From: the human T2T-CHM13v2.0 reference genome, Homo sapiens
NCBI RefSeq assembly: GCF_009914755.1
Contig: NC_060929.1
Strand: one strand, 5' to 3'
Length of the DNA stretch: 64,000 nucleotides
Made by a program: the position numbers and the translations under genes
Notes under the pieces: model-generated
The model's input: only the letters and a program-made list of their open reading frames with translations
Databases searched by the model: none
What the model was told of the DNA's origin: nothing
In this document: positions 1-31,125 of the stretch, piece after piece
How positions within the stretch are numbered: the first letter of the stretch is position 1
Layout: each line of letters opens with the position of its first letter

Positions 1-1607
1 TTTTCTTAACGAGCCAGATTTTCCTATTGTTTAAATTGTTTCCTTAATTCTTCCAAGCGATTGGAGTGCTATGCCCTGGAGTATCAAAACTGCCTTTAAT
101 GTTACCCTGATGTCCCAAATGTTATACTTCCAAAAGCGTAGTTGAGGCAGTTGAGAAGATCTGGCTCAATTTAATGTTCAATTTTAAGTACCAGGGGCTT
201 TTGCATGATATCTTATTCTCTCCCTGGAGGATTATATTAATTGGAACAGGAACACTGAAGTGGTAACACACTTAGCATTATTTATCTCTGCATTAGGGAC
301 ACTAAGGACCTATTTAGCTGGTGGGAGAATCAGAAGCATCATTTTCAGTTCCTAAAGAAATCAAGTTTTATCCCTAATCCTTTGCATGTCTCACCAAGCC
401 CCTCTCTTGCCTTATTGAACTATTCACTTTCTCAAAGGAACACTAAGAATTAATAACAAATATGCATATTGTCCAAAGGGACCAGCATTTTGTCTACTTC
501 TAGACTTCCTAATTTTTTAGATTTGCTGACTGTAGCATAAGTTTGATTATTTATTCTTTCATATTTTTGTTGTTGCTGCTGCCGTTGTTGAACATCAAGG
601 CAATTTCATAATGTTGACTTGAATACTTTCTTCTGATGACCTAAGATTTTTATTTCAGTACATCTACTCAGAGTTGCTATAGATCAAGTTTAAAACAAAT
701 CTATCATATCTATCATAATGTTATAAAATACATGTCCTTCAAATTTATTTTTTTCTCAGATTTTGTGTGTGTTTGTTTAAGTTTAACCTTAACTGGAGTT
801 TCCCTTTAGAGCTTGCTTTGTTGGCCTTAAAAATGTATTCTTTATGTTTAAAGATTTTAGAGATACTTACTATATAGAGGAATTGAAAGGAAATATCAAT
901 GATAACCTATTAAAATGCATTTAAATAGACTTCCACACATTTTTATCTGTACTCCTCCTTTCAAGAATAGAAAAGAGCAGATCATTTGCATTTCTTCTTC
1001 CTCACTTTCATCCCTGAGAGTGGCCATCACAAAACTTGTATTTTCATACATTAAACCAACATTTATTTTACAAACCATTTTTTTCTTTCATCTGTCTTAT
1101 TTTTTGTATTATAAATAATGCATACTCATGTATGCATTGTACAAGCTGCTGAATTACATGAATTCCTGAAAGTACACAAAAAGATGCAAAGAAAAAAACA
1201 ATAAAATATCTCACCTATATTTTTATTTCTCTGAGATACCTACTGTACCGTTTTGCATATTGTCAGTTGTCTTCTAAAATTTTTTGCATATATATTATGT
1301 TCACAAGACTTTTTATCAATTTGGTGTTACCTTTGGAGAACAGTGACAATTGACCACCAGGACGTGTCTATTATTCTAAATTTTAGATCTTTGAATGTTA
1401 TTTAAAAGACAAAGTGATCCATTGCATCATTATTTGCTGGAAAAGCTCAACTGAGGTCAGGGTCATCTCTGCATCAGGCTCCTGAGAACTTAAACTTGCA
1501 AGGGAGACATTGCTCCTAACCACTATTGCCTATAGACGGGCAGTTACAAGGGATAACTGCTTGTAGACATCAAAATGATTCAGTCTTCTCCAGAAAAGAA
1601 AAGCATT

Positions 1608-2010
1608 TAGTATAGTTTGGATATTTGTCCCCACCCAAATCTCACATTGAATTGTAATCCTCAATGCTAGAGGTGGGGCCTGGTGGGAGGTGTTTGGATC
1701 ATGGGGACACATCCCTCGTGGCTTGGCAATGCCTTCATGATAGTCATTTCTCAGAAGATCTGATCACTTAAAAGTGTGGCGCACCCCCTTACCCCACTCT
1801 CTGTTTCTCTTGTTCCTGCTCTGGCCATGTGACGTACCTGCTCCTGCTTTACCTTCTACCATGAGTAAAAGCTTCCTGAGGCCTCCCCAGAAGCAGCTGC
1901 TGGCACTATGCTTCCTGTGCAACCTGCAGAACTGTGAGCCAATTAGACCTCTTTCCTTTTCAGTTACCCAGTCTCATTTCTTTATAGCAGTGTAAGAATG
2001 GCCTAATACA
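1608..2010 (+). mobile_element. MaLR solo LTR, MST family (MSTA/MSTB-like)
   Basis: Starts ..TATAGTTTGGATATTTGTCCCCACCCAAATCTCA, contains GGTGGGGCCTGGTGGGAGGTG and CCTGCAGAACTGTGAGCCAATTA, and ends CTAATACA, as in MST LTR consensus. Confidence 0.9.
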
Positions 2011-2539
2011 GCAACTGAAAGGAAAATATCAACTTGACAATGAAAATTAATGAAATAGCATTTTATTTCTTTGGCTGCAAAAAAATGCATTTAACTGACC
2101 ATTGTGAACAGGTATATAATTTATAATTCTAAAGATGGTATAATGTAATCAAGCAGTCTCCCTGGTAAAAGTAATCTTAGTTTGCCTAATTTTTTTATTT
2201 CTTTCCCAAGTATTTCTGGACTTAGTTGCTAACATCCTGTTAAGGCCACAGTACATTTCACTGTACAAATGCCTGAGTTAAGTACAGAATTTTGTGTTTT
2301 AATCATTTCATCTTCTACCCCAAATCACATCTCATATGACTAAAAGTCTTAGTCTATCATAAAATGTCCAGTAGGATTCTCCTGTATGTACAGTATTGAA
2401 TGAGATCAGAAGACATCAAATAGAAAACCATGAACCAGACCTGCTCACAGTTATCTTCCTTTAGGGCTAAACTTTTAAAAACCATTTTAAAATCTTTTGC
2501 CAACATTTAACAATTGGAAAAATACACTTAATGTTGTGA

Positions 2540-2877
<338 letters not shown>

Positions 2878-2884
2878 GTGAATT

Positions 2885-3209
2885 GCTTTTCTTTCTTCTT
2901 TTTTTTTTGGTGTGCGTGTGTGTGTGTTTGAGACAGAGTTTTACTGTGTCAGGCTGAAATGCAATAGTGCCATCACAGCTCACTGCATCCTCCACCTCAC
3001 TGGGCTCAAGTGATCTTCCCACTTCAGCTTCCTGAGTAGCTGGGAATGCAGGCATGTGCTACCATGCCTGGCTAATTTTTGTACTTTTTGTAGGGACTGG
3101 GTTTTGCCATGTTGCCTAGGTTTGTCTCAAACTCCTGAATTCAAGCAATCTTCCCCGCCTTGGCCTCCCAAAGTGCTGGGATTACAGGCGTGAACCACCA
3201 TGGCTGACC
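2885..3209 (-). mobile_element. Alu (AluJ-type)
   Basis: CATCACAGCTCACTGCA..GGGCTCAAGTGATCTTCCCAC (J-type diagnostics); T/TG-rich tail. Confidence 0.93.
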
Positions 3210-3768
3210 ATCTTGCTTTTCTTTTTTTATAAATCAAGAGATTAGGTAATCTTGGGGTTGCATTCAAGCAACCATCGGCTTGGACCCAGTAGTGCTACCA
3301 ACTTAAATGTGGGGCATGCTCTCTCGCTCACCATCATTCCACCATTTCCAGGTCATCTACACCTGGCTACTTTTACATGTTAACCTATGTCTGTATTCAG
3401 GTTTCTGACTTATTTTCTATGTGTTAGTTATGATTCCTTTTCATCATTTAACCTCTTCATATGCTAATATTCTAGCTGCACCACTTAACCAATTATTTTG
3501 CTTTACTTAGATTTGTTCCTACATCTGAGATAACCTTTTTATGTTGTTGTATGTTTCAGTAGGTCCTTTCCCTGTATATTGTTATAATTATCTCTTGTCG
3601 TATTTCCACACTCCAGATAAACCATTTATAACTTTCTGGTTTAATGTGGTCTTACGCCTGGTGGAATTCCTTTAGCCTGTGATGTTTCCGCTTTTCAAAA
3701 TACCCTTGCTCTTCTTATCCACCCTTGGATATCACTTATGCATTCTCTAAGCATCACTGCCAATGCTA

Positions 3769-4185
<417 letters not shown>

Positions 4186-4575
4186 TTACTTCATTTATGA
4201 CCCTAGAGTGCATTTGTTGATTTGTTTACCTATAGCCCCTAAGTAAGTTTCTCTACTCCCAGACTTGTTCCTTCAGGTAAAGACTATGCATCATGCAGGC
4301 TTACTGTGTCCACACTCAACTACATGCTCAGACAGATATAGTCCATTTTATACTTCTCTAATTGTTTCATTAAGTTGTGGTTTATTTGACAACTTTCATA
4401 AAATTAATATTTCTTTTTTTTTTTTTTTTAAGACGGAGTCTTGCTCTGTCGCCCAGACTGGAGTGCAGTGGCATGATCTCAGCTCACTGCAAACTCCGCC
4501 TCCTGGGTTCAAGCAATTCTCTGCCTCAGCCTCCCCAGTAGCTGGGATTACAGCCACCACACCTGGCTAATTTTT

Positions 4576-4886
4576 GTCAGGGTCATCTCTGCATCAGGCT
4601 CTTGAGAACTTAAACTTGCAAGGGAGACATTGCTCCTAACCACTATTGCCTATAGGCAGGCAGTTACAAGGGATAACTGCTTGTAGACATCAAGATGATT
4701 CAGCCTTCTCCAGAAAAGAAAAGCATTTAATATAGTTTGGATATTTGTCCCCACCCAAATCTCACATTGAATTGTAATCCTCGATGCTAGAGGTGGAGTC
4801 TGGTGGGAGGTGTTTGGATCATCGGGGCACATCCCTCATGGCTTGGTACTGTCTGCATGATACTCATTTCTCAGGAGATCTGATCA
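4576..4886 (+). repeat. Direct local duplication of 1456-1766 (includes the 5' part of the MST LTR)
   Basis: Ungapped match at offset 3120; about 18 mismatches in 311 bp by eye (~94%). Confidence 0.97.
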
Positions 4887-4896
4887 TAGATCTCCT

Positions 4897-5170
4897 GACA
4901 TGTCCTGGTGGTCAATTGTCACTGTTCTCCAGAGGTAATACCAAACTTATAAAAAGTCTTGTGAACATAATATATATGCAAAAAAATCTTAGAAGACAAC
5001 TAACAATATGCAAAATGGTACAGTAGGTACCCCAGAGAAACAAAAATATGGGTGAGATATTTTATTGTTTTTTCTTTGCATCTTTTTGTGTACGTTCAGG
5101 AATTCATGTAATTCAGCAATTTGTACAATGCATACATAGTATGCATTATTTATAATATAAAAAATAAGAC
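4897..5170 (-). repeat. Inverted local duplication of ~1094-1368
   Basis: GTCCTGGTGGTCAATTGTCACTGTTCTCC is the reverse complement of GGAGAACAGTGACAATTGACCACCAGGAC (~1335-1363); the match continues to AAAAATAAGAC, the reverse complement of GTCTTATTTTT at 1094. Confidence 0.96.
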
Positions 5171-6499
5171 CAATTTCTTATAAAAAATGAGACTGATTGT
5201 ATTTTAGTAGAGATGGGGTTTCACCGTCTTGGCCAGGCTGGTCTTGAACTCCTTATTTTGTGATCCACCCTCCTCAGCCTTCCAAAGTGCTGGGATTATA
5301 GGCGTGAGCCACTGCTCCTGCCCTAAGCTAATATTTCTACCCTGTATGGGTACAAGTCTTCGCCCTACTGCTTCTCTTCCCTTCCCCCACTTTTTCTTCC
5401 AGCTCTCCTGCAGTCTGGAGCATCACACATACACTCAGATACAGACACTCACACACACACTACCAATACCACCACCTCTACAATTACATAGCAGAGTAAT
5501 CATAATAAGTATCTACTAATTTGAAAGGTTTTGGTAGTACAGAAATACAGGTTTAGCATTTGCAATATAAATATCAGACTTTTTACCTGCCACACTGCCT
5601 TTTATAGTTTATTAAATTTTACTTAAAATGCTGTTTTAAAGTAAACAATGAAAATGATAATTTCATCAGAGCTAGAATTAAAAAGAAATTTTAAAGGCTC
5701 CAAAGACTCTTACCTAGTATGAATCATGTAGAAGGGGCTGTTTTCAGAAAAGAGTTTAAAATTTTTTCAATAAGCTGTGATGGAAGGTAACTACAGAAAG
5801 CTCTCCATGATCAGTTTCGTGTCTAGTTGTAAAAGTGGGCCTTGAATACCCTCATTTGTGTGCCTGATGTGGAGTTGTCTGTCTTTATGGGATTTTACAC
5901 AGCTGACAGCTAATGCAGGTGTTTAAATGCAAAATCTGACACCAATGTCTTCCCCTAAATGACGCTTCAATTCATAAATTATATGAATATGAGTAGCACT
6001 ATTCATTTATGAAATAATGCAGCTATCACTTAGTAATGCAATTCAAAACATCTTTCACTTTATTTAGCCATTTCCAACCCCATTACATGTGCCTATGAAA
6101 AGAATAAAAATTGATTAGACAAGGAGTGAAAAGTGGGCAAAAGCATTTCCCAGCATGTTGCCTGACTCATGGCAAAACGATGGAGCTGTAGCATTTTATT
6201 TCCTATTGAAGAGATGTTTCTTGCTTAGGTGGCCTGTTTCTGATTAAAAGCATCTTTGTAATATTGCATTCACTTCCATAAAAAGAATATGCTCTGTGCC
6301 AGGAAAGAGTCTGGTACTAATTGCAAAAAAAGATGTTACTGCGGCAAGACAGGATATTCCCGGTTCTGAAGCTTGTAGGATGGGGGGTCTAGAAAATGTA
6401 GCACATCATTTCCCTGTAGCTTCTACTTTCTCTGTGTTGGGTCAATAATAAAAGTGGAAATGATATAACCATCACCAGCAGCTAAAACATCAATGATAG

Positions 6500-6700
6500 C
6501 TATAACTTTTTCAGGGCTTTGCAAATATTATTTCCTTCAAATATATTACTTAACAATTGTCAAAACAACCTGGAAATGTGGAATTATTATCCTGTTTTAC
6601 AGATGTGGACTTTGAGGCTCAGCTATGTTAAGTGACTTGCACAGCTAGGTAATGAATGCTAGACCCAGGTCTGTCGGGCGCAAGCCCGTGCTCTTTCCAC
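6500..6700 (-). mobile_element. MIR SINE
   Basis: MIR core ATTATCCTGTTTTACAGATGTGGAC..TGAGGCTCAG..GTTAAGTGACTTGC. Confidence 0.8.
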
Positions 6701-9700
6701 TTTCCCCGAGAGTGACTTTCTCCAGAATGTCAACTTCTCATCTCCCATTCCTGTAACTACATAATTTAGGGTTTACAGTGCCTGTGTGAGAAAAGATAGA
6801 AAGCTCCCATTGACTGTCGTCCCAAACGTGGTTCACAGGCCTGTATGACAGGGGAACTCTTTGCTTGCTTTCATAATTTTTTGAGATTTCTAATTAAAGC
6901 ATTTCGCTGTTTAGGGTTTTCTTTTTGAATTTTGGGAAACATCTAGATGTAGATCTATTCTGTCTTTTTCAGGAAGAGAAGGGAGAACGCATGTCTGTCT
7001 CTCTGGTGGCACTTGGGGAGTGTCATCCTGGCCGGCCATCCATCCTCTATGAGCTCCAGACACAGCCTGTGGTGTACTCGTGCAGGGAAGCAATTGAGAA
7101 GCAGCACAAATTAGAGTTCTGTGAAGAATAGCTTGTCAAAGGATAAGGGACATATTTTACATTTACTTTTGTGAAATGTGGTATTTGGGATGAGGATCTT
7201 GCATTTTGAGCAGAATGTTGCTAATTTCTCACATGGTCTTTATCGAGAAGTACAAACTCAGTGGGCAGTATACAGCACGAGGAACATGTCCCAGGAAGGT
7301 TGTGAATTACACTGCCAGATGGCCTCAGCTCCCCACGGGCTGCTCCAAAGTCATACAGATTCTTTTTTCATTAATTTCAAATTTTCCCTAACATTTTCAT
7401 AGGCATAAGACTTTTAAAGGGGGAAAATAGCCATTTTAATAAAAAAAGAAAATAGTTAGTTTGGACATACACATTTTGCAGGTGAATACAGTCCTATATT
7501 TATTAAAAAATGAATACATGATACGATAATATCTATGTTCAAAATACATTTACATTTGTAATGCATCACTTATTAGAAATAGATAAGTTTTATCATTGTT
7601 TCCCTCTCAAGATTGTATGCTTATTAGTGGCAGACAGAGCTTTATAGACTAGTGGTTTCTGTGTTCTATTCTAAATATGACATGAAACTTATTGCATAGA
7701 ACTTCCCTCCTTTTTCTCTTTTGATTTATTTCTTTTCCAGAATCCTACATAATCCTGATTTTGAATTTTCAGTCAGCTGGACTCTTTACCAGGTCTGTAC
7801 AGGAAAAGGTATCAGATTGGATTCTCAGGCTAAAAATGCCATAGTTGGAATGAAAGGAAAGGATTTAAGTAAACATGGCCAACACCGAAAAAACTTTCTG
7901 TTAAATATAGACAAGAAGACCATAAAACAATGGGTAGAACTAGAATGTGTTTCTTTGTTTTAAAACCCCACCCTCAGGCTTGAAACCATAGTATAACTTC
8001 TGAAGCAACTGTCGTGGATATATTCTGGAAGACCAAAGAAAAATTAATCCTATCCTTTTAACATTGATATAAATTCATTAGGTCTATATATTTTTTCCCT
8101 CTACTGTGTAGAATCTGAAAGTGGTATTCTTGAAATTATTAACACAGTACAGATGGCCTATTCTAATCAATCTGGCTTCTTCGCAGTCCATGAACACACC
8201 GTGTTTGCTCCACCTCAGATGGGTCATTCTGTTTCTGTCTATTCACCTGTCTCCGTTCTTGCCTCCAAGATTCACATATGACCCTTCAGTATCACAAAGT
8301 ATACTCTAGTGAGCGCAGCCTTCCCTTGCTTAGAAAAAGTGTAGCCCTTAATTGTTGCTTAGTAGTCTCTGCTATGCTGCTCTTTGGTATGAGTTTGCCT
8401 TCACAACTATATTGCGCCTTCTCAACTATATTGTGGGCTCGCTAAAGGGAAGGAACCTGTCATATACATCCCTCAGCACAAAGCAAAGCTTGGACTCTCA
8501 GGAAGAGCTTGTTGACTTGGAGACTGCTTTCTGCCATGTAATTTTTATTGTTTTATGGAGGGAGATTCTGCAGAGCATAAACTATGTCCTTGAAACCAAG
8601 CACTCTTGGGAACTATATTAATTTAGGGCACATGGGCCCTATTTATTTACTGTTTCAATATACTGAGTTGGATGTACTATCAATCACACAATCTGGCAGT
8701 ATTTTAAAAATGCAATACTTCTTCTGCATGTTTCAGCTTTGCTCCTTCTCTGATGACCTTTTGGAAGCAGCGGAGTGGGTCTAGGAGAAGAGAAGTACTT
8801 GTCATGCTCCGTCAACTTCTAGAACCTGAATTTAAAAACCTAAAGAGATCAAGAATTCCTTTTGTCGTTTTCTTAAAGAAGAAATACCATCTCCACCAGT
8901 AGAGAAAAGCATAGTATAGGCATACCTTCTTTTATTGTGCTTAGCTTTACTGCACTTCACAGATAATTGCATTTTTTACAAATCGAAGGTTTGTGGCAAC
9001 CCTGAGCCAAGGAAGTCTATTGATGCCATTTTTCCAACAGCATGTGCTCACTTCATACTTCTTTGTCACGTTGCGGTAATTCTTGCAATATTTTAAACTT
9101 TTAAATTATCATATCTGTTATAGTGATCTGTGATCAGTGATCTTTGATGTCACTATTGTAATTATTTTGAGGCACCACTAACTACTCCCATATAAGATGT
9201 GAACTTAATCTAGAAATGTGTGTGTCCTGACTGCTTCAACAACCAGATGTTTCTTTGTCTCTCTCTCTCTTCTTGGTCATCCCTATTCCCTGAGATACAA
9301 TATATTGAAATTAGGCCAATTAATAGCACTACAATAGCCCCTAAGTGTTCAAGTGAAAGGCCACTTTGCACGTCTGTCACTTTAAATCAAGCACTAAAAA
9401 TGATTGAGCTTAGTGAGGAAGGAATGTCAAAAGCCAAGATAGGCTGAAAGCTAGGCCTCTGTGCCAAGCAGTTAATCAAGTTGTGAATGCAAAGGAGAAG
9501 TTTCTGAAGAAAATTAAAAGTGCTACTCCAGTGAACACACAAATGACAAGAAAGCAAAAGAAACTTCTTGCCAATATGGAGAAAGTCTGAGTGGTCTGGA
9601 TAGATAAAACCAGCCAGAACATTCCCTGAAGCCAAAGCCTAATCCAGAGCAAGGTCCTAACTCTCTTCAGTTCTATGAAGGCTGAGAGAGATGAGGACAC

Positions 9701-20214: not shown

Positions 20215-21191
20215 TGTGGTAGACTGAATAAGAGCTCTGAAAATGTCTACACCCTAATCTCTGGAATCCATACATTTGTATTAGGTGGAAAAGGTACTGT
20301 CCAGATGTGATTCAGGTGTACACCTTGAGATGAAGAGATTATCTTGGTTTATCCATTTGAGCCTAATCTAGTCACATGAGCCTTTAAAAGAGGGGTAACT
20401 TCCAGCTGCAGTCAGTTACAGAGAAGTGCAGTGTGAGAACAAATCATTACTGATTTGAAGACAGAGGAAGAAGACTATGAGTCAAGGAAAGGGGGTGAAA
20501 TCCAGATGCTGAGAACAGCTCTCAGCTGACAGTCAGCAAGGAAACAGGACCTCAGTTGTACAATTACAAGAAGTGAATTCTGTCAACAGCCTAACTGAGC
20601 AAGGAAGCAGATTCTTCCCCAGAACATGGCACTCCAAAATATGCCACTTTGGCATAAGGATGATTTTGAGTTGAAGGCTTTTAAGATTTAACAGATGCAG
20701 AAAGAAGGCTTCCTTTATCTGACCAAAACAGAACTTTTGAGAAATGAGGGCTGTTGTAAACTCTCTCTCCAGAGGAAGTTTTGTGTCCGTGAAGAAAGCG
20801 GAAAGTTGGCACCAAGATGACCTTTACAGACAAGCCTCACTCTATTTGTTTCCCCCTTCTATTTACCCTCCGACAGTTTGCCACCTTGGAAGCCTGAAGC
20901 CTTTTGTTTTGTCACTTCTCTACAAATGTATTGTTCTTTGTTAAAATTGTTTATGTAAGCCCAAGTTCTAACCACTCCTTTGAGTTGCTCACCTCTAAGT
21001 TTCTCCCAGGTGTATTCCGGGTGCATGTGTTAATAACTGAGTTCTGCTTGCTTTTCTCTTGTTAATCCATTTTCCTGTCAATTTTATTCACAGGACTTCT
21101 CACCTACAGAAACTGTAAGATTATAAATTTGTGCTGTATTAAGCCAATACAATTATGGCTATTTTTACAGCAACAATAGAAAATGAATATA
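20215..21191 (+). mobile_element. MLT1 (D/E-like) LTR, interrupted at ~20620-21092
   Basis: TGTGGTAGACTGAATAA...GAGATTATCTTGG...CTGACAGTCAGCAAGGAAAC; resumes GACTTCTCACCTACAGAAACTGTAAGA...CAGCAACAATAGAAAATGAATATA. Confidence 0.85.
20620..21092 (+). mobile_element. ERV1-class LTR fragment (MER34/MER39-like) nested in MLT1
   Basis: CCAAAATATGCCACTTTGGCATAAGGATGATTTTGAGTTGAAGGC and TTTTCTCTTGTTAATC motifs. Confidence 0.7.
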
Positions 21192-30922: not shown

Positions 30923-30932
<10 letters not shown>

Positions 30933-31125
30933 ATCATTAATAAGGCTAGGGTGATAAGCAAACGCCAGACCAGGTGGATATTTTAGGATGTTGAGGATGT
31001 TGCTGTTTACATTAGGAGCAATGGATTAACACAATCATTAATAAGGCTAGGGTGATAAGCAAACGCCAGACCAGGTGGATATTTTAGGATGTTGAGGATG
31101 TTGCTGTTTACATTAGGAGCAATGG
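30923..31125. repeat. Perfect 101-bp tandem duplication
   Basis: GATTAACACAATCATTAATAAGGCTAGG...CATTAGGAGCAATG occurs at 30923 and 31024 with no mismatch seen. Confidence 0.97.

What the first reader, a model, noticed from the sequence alone, without database searches (positions are those of the whole stretch)
4576..5197. Complex multi-segment templated insertion patching a break in the middle of an Alu
Seen: one antisense Alu, with matching outer TSD-like flanks, is split at its central linker (…TTTTTGT | TGTATTTTAG…). The ~620 bp insert is a mosaic of nearby DNA. Segment A (4576-4886) is a direct copy of 1456-1766, entered through a GT microhomology. Segment B (4897-5170) is an inverted copy of 1094-1368. 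A ~27 bp filler follows. The donors remain intact ~3 kb upstream, and the insert has no poly-A or TSD of its own. Known: short local segments copied in switching orientations with microhomologies are the signature of FoSTeS/MMBIR or Pol theta-type templated insertion. Inference: this is a fixed germline fossil of multi-step template-switch repair. About 6% divergence between copy A and its donor implies an old event that postdates both the MST LTR and the Alu.
Basis: partly seen in the sequence, partly recalled or inferred. Interest (0 to 1): 0.8.

Follow-up and report, generated by a model that had tools for sequence, protein, structure and literature searches.

The report
Alu break patched with copied DNA
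An old chromosome break inside an Alu repeat was mended by copying two pieces of single-copy DNA from 3 kb away, one forwards and one backwards; this is a clear but ordinary example of a repair scar already catalogued by the hundreds in the human genome.

Summary
One antisense Alu with a 10-nt exact target-site duplication is split at its T-rich linker; the halves overlap by 4 nt. The 620-bp insert holds a direct copy of 1456-1766 (293/311 identical) and an inverted copy of 1094-1368 (257/273 identical plus 3 one-base gaps). In the whole T2T genome the non-LTR parts match only themselves and these donors. K2P divergence is 0.061 and 0.062, so one event made both.

Two details are new. The 10-nt A/B junction is an 11-nt snap-back copy of the end of A. 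Most of the right-hand "filler" is a second copy of the end of B.

There is no poly-A and no target duplication above 4 nt, and the donors are intact. This is a germline, polymerase-made patch of a double-strand break.

[quoted passage not shown] 2009, PMC2671141): 824 proximal cases, 20 chimeric. This locus is absent from the chr5 rows of their proximal table. It is a new member of a known kind, of modest interest. SDSA, FoSTeS/MMBIR and an RNA template cannot be told apart from sequence alone.

The parts
1094..1368 (+). Donor of segment B. Single-copy DNA, still intact.
   Evidence: In the whole genome, 1000-1460 matches only itself and 4897-5170 (2 of 2 candidates).
1369..1455 (+). An 87-bp stretch between the two donors that was not copied.
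   Evidence: no second copy in the window or in the genome.
1456..1766 (+). Donor of segment A: 154 bp of single-copy DNA (1456-1609) plus the first ~157 bp of a MaLR-type (MST-like) LTR. The LTR runs on to about 2012.
Evidence: Matches to dispersed copies start near 1600-1612 and end near 2012.
4402..4414 (.). Left target-site duplication of the Alu (exact core TAATATTTCT at 4405-4414).
4414..4577 (-). Left half of the antisense Alu: poly-T (the Alu's A-tail) 4414-4429, then the body up to the linker, ending ...TTTTTGT.
   Evidence: aligns to the intact Alu 2560-2900 and ends at its position 2751.
4576..4886 (+). Segment A, a direct copy of 1456-1766. It is entered through the 2-nt microhomology GT (4576-4577).
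   Evidence: 293/311 identical, K2P 0.061.
4887..4898 (+). A/B junction. Bases 4888-4898 are the exact reverse complement of 4871-4881, the end of segment A (snap-back; 11-bp stem). T4887 is unassigned. GA at 4897-4898 is shared with the start of B.
   Evidence: exact 11-nt match; 5 of 20000 random window positions show an inverted match this long; hairpin -10.2 kcal/mol, z -3.0.
4897..5170 (-). Segment B, an inverted copy of 1094-1368.
   Evidence: 257/273 identical plus 3 one-base gaps, K2P 0.062.
5171..5178 (.). Eight nucleotides (CAATTTCT) with no convincing template.
   Evidence: only 1-2-mismatch matches of a 13-mer elsewhere in the window, as chance would give.
5179..5196 (-). Second, short copy of the donor end (donor 1108-1091, equal to the end of segment B at 5156-5173). 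15 of 18 bases match; the best 15-mer matches 14/15.
   Evidence: reached by 2 of 3000 shuffles of the filler and by 5 of 3000 random window positions.
5197..5323 (-). Right half of the same antisense Alu. It begins TTGT, which repeats the last 4 nt of the left half.
   Evidence: begins at position 2748 of the reference Alu.
5326..5338 (.). Right target-site duplication of the Alu (exact core at 5329-5338).

Best explanation
A double-strand break, or a collapsed fork, in the T-rich linker of an antisense Alu was repaired in the germline by DNA synthesis primed at microhomologies on a donor region about 3 kb upstream on the same chromosome. The donor was copied, not cut out.

The patch reads, from left to right:
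- Alu ...TTTTTGT, joined through the shared GT to donor 1456-1766, copied forwards.
- An 11-nt snap-back copy of that segment's own end.
- Through the shared GA, donor 1368-1094, copied in the opposite orientation.
- Eight untemplated or unassigned nucleotides.
- A 15-19-nt re-copy of the same donor end.
- Re-joining to the Alu, with TTGT present on both sides.

Both long segments have the sense of the donor + strand, so both were made on the donor - strand and in the same direction, from start points 1094 and 1456. Two models give exactly this product and cannot be separated here.
(a) The two 3' ends of the break each invaded or annealed to the same donor strand and were joined afterwards. 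This is the chimeric SDSA model of Pace et al.
(b) One nascent strand switched serially from a leading-type template to a lagging-type template about 400 nt behind it (FoSTeS/MMBIR), with two short abortive Pol-theta-like steps.

Shown: the anatomy, that the donors are single-copy, that the two segments are equally diverged, and the microhomologies. Inferred: the break itself, the polymerase(s), and the order of steps.
For: - Copy relationships and orientation.
- Local origin. In the whole genome the non-LTR part of A, and B plus the filler, match only themselves and the donors (2 of 2 candidates each; reciprocal search).
- Not a transposition. The copy spans a boundary between single-copy DNA and an LTR and stops after ~157 bp of a ~400-bp LTR.
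- One Alu with its own target-site duplication and contiguous halves.
- Direction of copying. The donors are intact and the insert sits inside a younger element.
- Single event. K2P is 0.061 versus 0.062 and Fisher p = 1. The small fillers share the large segments' state where the present donor differs: G4875 with its snap-back complement against donor A1755, and T at 5158 and at the matching place in the re-copy against donor position 1106.
- The divergence accrued later and on both sides. Of 13 differences in the LTR part, polarised with 40 other genomic copies, 6 are derived in the donor, 6 in the insert and 1 is unclear.
- Snap-back and re-copy exceed chance.
- No poly-A; duplication of at most 4 nt.
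- The features match the published class: microhomology 2-9 nt, filler 1-68 nt, TSD 4-21 nt, donor under 5 kb away, chimeric acceptors (PMC2671141, sections read).
Against: - No outgroup genome was available, so no empty pre-insertion site was seen. The break and the single-step origin are inferred.
- The two copied pieces (311 and 275 bp; 622 bp in all) are large for this class. The proximal mean is 162 bp and the maximum 619 bp. They are far larger than typical Pol-theta templated inserts.
- Eight nucleotides (5171-5178) and T4887 have no template.
- Mismatch density is uneven: 5/154 in the single-copy part of A, 13/157 in its LTR part and 16/273 in B. The difference is not significant (chi-square p = 0.17; Fisher p = 0.087 for the two parts of A).
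- That both segments come from the same template strand would also fit a single-stranded RNA template.
Confidence: 0.8

Rival explanations
1. RNA-templated repair resembling twin priming. A single antisense (minus-strand) transcript spanning 1766 to 1094 bridged the break. The top-strand 3' end primed internally at GT and was extended to the RNA's 5' end, giving A. The bottom-strand 3' end primed near the RNA's 3' end, giving B in the opposite orientation. The 87 nt between them were lost, as happens at twin-priming inversion junctions. The reverse transcriptase could be L1 ORF2p acting without its endonuclease (class 2 templated sequence insertion) or Pol theta.
For: - Both long segments have the same sense and lie in tandem on one template strand, which a single-stranded template explains most simply. 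This is my own derivation.
- The order 'inverted 5' part, direct 3' part, internal deletion' is the twin-priming architecture (passages in PMC12350158; the original twin-priming paper was not held).
- Class 2 TSIPs lack a TSD and a poly-A and show microhomology and extra nucleotides (PMC5110952).
Against: - There is no poly-A tail and no TSD of 5 bp or more.
- The T-rich strand of the target is used for the internal segment and not for an A-tail, which is the reverse of canonical target-primed reverse transcription.
- The donor is only 3 kb away. In Pace et al., 0 of 39 inspected proximal (<5 kb) events had poly-A/T tails, against 17 of 29 inspected interchromosomal events, which argues for DNA templating of proximal events.
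- No antisense transcript is known here, and the LTR points the other way. The LTR's orientation is from recall of LTR termini and was not tested.
Confidence: 0.1
2. End-joining capture of two free DNA fragments, for example from a shattered sister chromatid or from replication by-products, ligated into the break in random orientation.
For: The insert has two segments in opposite orientation with short junctions. Fragment capture at breaks is known (introduction of PMC5110952).
Against: - Both fragments come from within 673 bp of one another and from 3 kb away, and the donor locus is intact.
- The junctions carry templated snap-back and re-copy tracts, which need a polymerase and not only a ligase.
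- There is microhomology at three junctions.
Confidence: 0.06
3. Several independent events: for example, A inserted first, B inserted later, or a later inversion or deletion reshaped a simple duplication.
For: None directly. It cannot be excluded without outgroup genomes.
Against: - A and B have equal divergence.
- Getting from B-gap-A to A-B' needs at least three rearrangements.
- The fillers carry the same ancestral states as the large segments.
Confidence: 0.03
4. A nested transposable-element insertion (LTR or other repeat) or an assembly artefact.
For: About a quarter of the insert (4730-4886) belongs to a dispersed LTR family: 4633 first-look candidates, of which 40 were scored.
Against: - The remaining ~465 bp are single-copy apart from the donors.
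- Only the first ~157 bp of the LTR are present, joined to the LTR's own upstream flank.
- There are no terminal repeats and no element-type target duplication.
- At 6% divergence from the donors, this is not a collapsed or duplicated read.
Confidence: 0.01

Closest known systems
[quoted passage not shown]
   Same: A transposable element is interrupted by at least 50 bp of non-element DNA whose only other copy lies under 5 kb away on the same chromosome. There is no poly-A. The junctions show microhomology, filler and a short duplication, and the donor is retained. Chimeric acceptors built from two donors are described: 20 cases, 5 of them with the second donor within 3.5 kb of the first.
   Different: - This locus is not among the chr5 rows of their '<5 kb' sheet. 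I saw places 1-90 of 125 chr5 occurrences, which cover all chr5 rows of the '<5 kb' sheet and the first rows of the '>5 kb or different chromosome' sheet. A prefix search for coordinates 83.0-83.4 Mb found none on chr5. My estimate of the hg18 position rests on recall.
- Their filters remove inserts that carry annotated repeats or have more than two genome matches. That would remove this one because of its LTR piece.
- The two donors here are only 88 bp apart, against 289-3,432 bp in their five cases.
- At 622 bp the whole insert is as long as their longest proximal case (619 bp).
- The passages I read do not mention snap-back or re-copy tracts, or the opposite orientation of two neighbouring donors.
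Germline MMBIR-type templated insertions (MMB-TI; Osia et al. 2021, NAR, PMC8421209; passages read)
   Same: Insertions templated from nearby sequence with microhomology at each switch. 'Complex' events copy forwards and backwards from up to five templates, and they occur as inherited germline variants.
   Different: Those were found from short reads with thresholds of at least 10 or at least 25 bp, so they are mostly much shorter. Here the segments are about 300 bp and the event is old and presumably fixed.
Polymerase-theta end joining / SD-MMEJ templated insertions with snap-back synthesis (e.g. PMC4912351, PMC5728401, PMC2943611; search listing and abstracts only)
   Same: The 11-nt snap-back at 4888-4898 and the repeated short copy at 5179-5196 look like abortive in-cis and in-trans synthesis between rounds of annealing.
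   Different: The two ~300-bp copies from 3 kb away are much longer and more distant than the inserts usually ascribed to Pol theta. The enzyme cannot be identified from sequence.
L1 twin priming, and class 1 / class 2 templated sequence insertion polymorphisms (PMC5110952 passages; PMC12350158 passages)
   Same: The architecture is an inverted 5' part plus a direct 3' part with an internal loss. Class 2 TSIPs likewise lack a TSD and a poly-A and show end-joining signatures.
   Different: There is no poly-A, no TSD of 5 bp or more, and no L1 sequence. The donor is local rather than distant. RNA involvement is unsupported.
Small inverted or complex duplications in long-read human structural-variant catalogues (Schloissnig et al. 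2025, Nature, PMC12350158; passages read)
   Same: Inverted duplications have a median length of 284 bp, mostly with 1-15-bp microhomology, and are ascribed to replicative mechanisms. Segment B (275 bp) fits this.
   Different: Those are polymorphic and were annotated within 2 kb of the insertion point. This one is old, lies 3 kb from its donor, and combines a direct and an inverted piece.

Membership tests
Repair-mediated duplication (Pace et al. 2009) | A transposable element is split by at least 50 bp, and the two fragments abut within +/-30 bp of each other in element coordinates. | tested here: met
   the left half ends at reference-Alu position 2751 and the right half starts at 2748. The insert is 620 bp.
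Repair-mediated duplication (Pace et al. 2009) | The inserted DNA has one parental copy, on the same chromosome and within 5 kb. | tested here: met
   2 of 2 genome matches are self and donor, for the non-LTR parts. The donors lie 2.8-3.5 kb upstream. The LTR part has thousands of relatives, but its best match is the local donor.
Repair-mediated duplication (Pace et al. 2009) | No added poly-A or poly-T tract of 5 bp or more at an insert end. | tested here: met
   The T5 before GT at 4571-4575 is the Alu's own linker; the intact Alu at 2743-2751 has the same run. The A6 at 5183-5188 is internal and is templated by the donor.
Repair-mediated duplication (Pace et al. 2009) | Break-repair signatures at the junctions: microhomology 2-9 nt, filler 1-68 nt, deletion, or a short duplication. 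| tested here: met
   GT (2 nt), GA (2 nt), fillers of 10 and 26 nt, and TTGT on both sides.
Repair-mediated duplication (Pace et al. 2009) | An empty orthologous site in an outgroup species. | not testable with these tools
   No primate genome other than the window's own assembly is held.
L1-mediated insertion (TPRT, twin priming, class 1 TSIP) | A target-site duplication of at least 5 bp flanking the insert. | tested here: not met
   At most 4 nt (TTGT), of which GT is also donor sequence.
L1-mediated insertion (TPRT, twin priming, class 1 TSIP) | A non-templated poly-A tail 10-30 nt downstream of a polyadenylation signal. | tested here: not met
   neither insert end carries an A- or T-tail.
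L1-mediated insertion (TPRT, twin priming, class 1 TSIP) | Insertion at a 5'-TTTT/A-3' endonuclease site, with the T-run priming on the A-tail. | tested here: inconclusive
   The target is T-rich (TTTTTGT/ATTTT). However, the T-rich 3' end adjoins the internal or 5' segment and not an A-tail (reasoned).
FoSTeS / MMBIR complex templated insertion | At least two template switches between nearby templates, with changes of direction and microhomology at the switches. | tested here: met
   Four or five junctions and two direction changes, with 2-nt microhomologies at three of them.
FoSTeS / MMBIR complex templated insertion | Origin at a stalled or collapsed fork, through one-ended replicative synthesis. 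| not testable with these tools
   The product is identical to that of two-ended SDSA.
Pol theta-mediated end joining | Dependence on POLQ; short templated inserts copied from sequence next to the break. | not testable with these tools
   Only the two short tracts (11 nt and 15-19 nt) have the expected form. The enzyme cannot be read from sequence.
Nested LTR / retroelement insertion | A complete element or solo LTR, with its own termini and target duplication. | tested here: not met
   Only ~157 of ~400 bp of the LTR are present, fused to the donor's single-copy upstream flank.

The most novel reading that the evidence does not exclude
Both ends of the break were extended on one and the same single-stranded template: a local antisense transcript, or an exposed lagging-strand template. 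On the transcript version, this scar would be a germline fossil of RNA-templated (twin-priming-like, poly-A-independent) double-strand-break repair from a nearby nascent RNA. The tandem arrangement of the two copied tracts on one strand, 88 nt apart, would then record where the two primers sat.
Probability: 0.1. Interest if true: 0.6.

Novelty: new member of a known kind. Interest (0 to 1): 0.3.

Why it matters
The locus is a clean, fully resolved natural example of how the primate germline patches a break with nearby DNA. It has five junctions and two orientations, and it includes snap-back and re-copy tracts. The Alu frame around it defines the pre-break sequence to the base.

It also shows that catalogues which discard inserts carrying any annotated repeat, as in Pace et al. 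2009, miss such events.

The patch left a 311-bp direct repeat pair and a 275-bp inverted repeat pair, 3.1 and 3.5 kb apart. These are possible substrates for later deletion or inversion.

No function is suggested. The site is intergenic, about 104 kb from EDIL3 by the hub's table, and the only RefSeq functional element in the window (a silencer at 20331-20625) is 15 kb away.

Tried and rejected
- Dispersed-repeat origin: rejected by whole-genome searches.
- Error-prone synthesis as the cause of the mismatch cluster at the 3' end of A: rejected. The 13 LTR-part differences split 6 donor-derived, 6 insert-derived and 1 unclear.
- A template for 5171-5178, or for the whole 27-nt filler, elsewhere in the window: none found with up to 5 mismatches. 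It is too short for the genome DNA search.
- Annealing of the two nascent strands at the AGATCT or GATC palindromes as the origin of the A/B junction: I worked this through by hand, and the predicted junction sequences do not match the observed one.
- Other low-copy local duplications of this kind in the 64-kb window: none. Only a perfect 101-bp tandem duplication turned up.
- The original twin-priming paper (PMC311219) is not held. The endonuclease-independent L1 paper (PMC1920257) was not read, because my query had a term the tool rejects and I did not repeat it.
- Orthologous primate loci and human population variant sets: no tool holds them.
- Alu subfamily: not tested. I think it is an AluS from recalled diagnostic positions.
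Full report

The repeat scan of 1-7000 finds a direct pair, 1456-1755 / 4576-4875, at 94%. It also finds three colinear inverted pairs that together join 1128-1368 to 4897-5137 at 92-96%.

Global alignment refines these:
- Segment A, 4576-4886, equals 1456-1766: 293 of 311 identical, no indels.
- Segment B, 4897-5170, is the reverse complement of 1094-1368: 257 of 273 identical, plus three single-base gaps.

A search of the window's own 3.1-Gb assembly gives E = 6e-133 and 2e-109 for these two matches. A self-BLAST of the whole 64-kb window shows that these are the only low-copy dispersed duplications in it.

**The frame is one Alu**

I aligned each half to the intact antisense Alu at 2560-2900. 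The left half ends at that Alu's position 2751 (...TTTTTGT). The right half starts at 2748 (TTGT...). The halves therefore abut with a 4-nt overlap.

The element has its own poly-T (4414-4429). It also has its own target-site duplication, TAATATTTCT, exact at 4405-4414 and 5329-5338, and 11 of 13 when extended.

The insert therefore arrived in an Alu that was already in place. I believe it is an AluS, from recalled diagnostic positions; no tool tested this.

**The insert comes from the local donors and not from a repeat family**

- The non-LTR part of A (4576-4729) matches only itself and 1456-1609 in the whole genome: 2 of 2 first-look candidates.
- B plus the right filler (4897-5197) matches only itself and 1094-1368: 2 of 2.
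- The reciprocal search with 1000-1460 gives the same result. It also shows that 1000-1093 and 1369-1460 were not copied anywhere.
- Only insert positions ~144-312 (window ~4719-4887) hit a dispersed family: 4633 first-look candidates, 40 scored, giving 42 matches. The 39 matches other than the insert itself and the two donors have 79-90% identity. With the donor LTR as query, the 38 matches other than itself and the insert have 82-87%. The local donor matches at 92-94%.
- The family is a MaLR-type LTR. In the donor it continues to about 2012.

So the copy took 154 bp of single-copy flank plus the first ~157 bp of a ~400-bp LTR. No transposition can do that.

**One event, and an old one**

Mismatches are 18/311 in A and 16/273 in B (Fisher p = 1). 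K2P distances are 0.061 and 0.062.

Mismatch density looks uneven: 5/154 in the single-copy part of A, 13/157 in its LTR part and 16/273 in B. The difference is not significant (chi-square p = 0.17).

I asked whether the dense patch near the 3' end of A reflects sloppy synthesis. I fetched 40 other genomic copies of the LTR part: 20 found by both the donor and the insert queries, 10 found by the donor query only and 10 by the insert query only. I then counted states at the 13 differing sites. Six are derived in the donor, six in the insert and one is unclear. The divergence is symmetric, as expected for decay after the event.

At 1.0-2.2e-9 substitutions per site per year (recalled rates), the event dates to roughly 14-30 million years ago. 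For comparison, I looked at the Table S1 rows of Pace et al. that I saw. Events with 5.8-6.6% donor-acceptor divergence are labelled HCO, HCOR or 'All primates'. Gene conversion between the copies would make this age a minimum.

1. Entry. GT (4576-4577) is shared by the Alu linker and donor 1456-1457.
2. A/B junction. Bases 4888-4898 are the exact reverse complement of 4871-4881, the last bases of A.
   - An inverted match of at least 11 nt next to a random window position occurs in 5 of 20000 trials.
   - The stretch folds into a 12-pair hairpin at -10.2 kcal/mol, z = -3.0.
   - The snap-back arm carries the complement of G4875, whereas the present donor has A at 1755. So it was copied from the freshly made A, or from the donor as it then was.
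3. GA (4897-4898) is shared by the snap-back arm and the start of B.
4. After B ends at donor 1094, eight nucleotides (5171-5178) have no template.
5. Bases 5179-5196 repeat the donor end (donor 1108-1091, which is B's end at 5156-5173): 15 of 18 match, and the best 15-mer matches 14/15.
   - This is reached by 2 of 3000 shuffles of the filler and by 5 of 3000 random window positions.
   - The first copy (base 5158) and the re-copy both carry T where the reverse complement of the present donor has C (donor position 1106).
6. Exit. TTGT is present on both sides of the insert. Because GT is also donor sequence, the true target duplication is 0-4 nt.

There is no poly-A or poly-T addition.

**Mechanism**

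Both long tracts have the sense of the donor + strand. Both were therefore synthesised on the donor - strand, in the same direction, from start points 1094 and 1456. The first tract stops 88 nt short of where the second begins.

Two DNA-templated models give exactly this product:
- (a) Each 3' end of a two-ended break invaded or annealed to the same donor strand, was extended, and the two products were joined. This is the chimeric SDSA model of Pace et al..
- (b) A single nascent strand copied 1456-1766, snapped back for 11 nt, and switched to the opposite template ~400 nt behind. It then copied 1368-1094, slipped and re-copied 15-19 nt, and re-annealed to the Alu. This is FoSTeS/MMBIR with Pol-theta-like abortive steps.

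I cannot separate these from sequence. I put 0.8 on 'DNA-templated, polymerase-made patch from the proximal donor, single event'.

**Rivals**

The main rival is an RNA template, at 0.1. A single antisense transcript would naturally make both ends copy the same strand, and it gives the twin-priming architecture. Against it:
- There is no poly-A and no TSD of 5 bp or more.
- The T-rich end is used the wrong way round.
- In Pace et al., 0 of 39 inspected proximal events had poly-A/T tails, against 17 of 29 inspected interchromosomal events.

Three further rivals are unlikely:
- Ligation of free fragments (0.06).
- Several independent events (0.03).
- A nested repeat or an assembly artefact (0.01).

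**Comparison with what is known**

The closest described class is the 'repair-mediated duplication' of Pace, Sen, Batzer and Feschotte 2009 (PMC2671141). I read the abstract, sections 6 and 7, passages of section 21 and Table S1.
- They found transposable elements interrupted by at least 50 bp whose only other copy is nearby.
- There are 824 proximal (<5 kb) cases in human, with mean length 162 bp and maximum 619 bp.
- Junctions show microhomology of 2-9 nt, filler of 1-68 nt and TSD of 4-21 nt.
- Twenty acceptors are chimeric. In five of these the second donor lies 289-3,432 bp from the first.

Every feature of that class that I could test is met here; only the empty orthologous site could not be tested.

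The locus itself is not in their '<5 kb' sheet. I saw places 1-90 of 125 chr5 occurrences, which cover all chr5 rows of the '<5 kb' sheet and the first rows of the second sheet. The only row near 83-84 Mb is an LTR16B acceptor with a downstream donor. A prefix search for 83.0-83.4 Mb found no chr5 row. My hg18 position estimate is from recall.

Their pipeline drops nested-repeat inserts and inserts with more than two genome matches. That would exclude this one because of its LTR piece.

Related descriptions:
- Germline complex MMBIR-type templated insertions, with up to five templates (PMC8421209, passages).
- Inverted duplications of median 284 bp with 1-15-bp microhomology in 1,019 long-read genomes (PMC12350158, passages).
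- Class 2 templated sequence insertions (PMC5110952, passages).
- Pol-theta and SD-MMEJ snap-back synthesis (listing and abstracts only).

I ran no search aimed at this locus by name.

**Verdict**

The finding is real, was correctly read by the first stage, and is now resolved to the base. It is a new member of a known and numerous kind, not a new mechanism.

Its particular points are the two neighbouring donors copied from the same strand in opposite final orientation, and the snap-back and re-copy tracts. It also has an unusually large total size for a proximal event, and it had escaped the published catalogue. Interest 0.3.

Noticed in passing
window 30923-31125: A perfect tandem duplication: two copies of a 101-bp unit, 100% identical, with no indels. 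It is either very recent or polymorphic. It was the only other low-copy duplication in the window's self-comparison.
   Followed up: partly
window 1727-1732: Three donor-derived substitutions within 6 bp (1727, 1729, 1732). At these sites 39, 36 and 40 of the 40 other LTR copies share the insert's state. This looks like a multi-nucleotide mutation cluster that arose in the donor after the copy was made. The insert has a smaller cluster of its own at 4797/4799.
   Followed up: partly
window 1456-1766 / 4576-4886 and 1094-1368 / 4897-5170: The event left a 311-bp direct repeat pair 3.1 kb apart and a 275-bp inverted repeat pair 3.5 kb apart, both ~94% identical. These are possible substrates for later deletion, duplication or inversion of the segment between them, which holds three Alus. 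Population data were not available.
   Followed up: no
window 2560-3237 and 3873-4190: The 2.8 kb between donor and insert contains two adjacent antisense Alus (about 2585-2880 and 2885-3215) and one sense Alu (about 3880-4190) with a long, interrupted A-rich middle linker. They form several 50-120-nt inverted pairs with one another and with the split Alu (I1, I5-I12).
   Followed up: no
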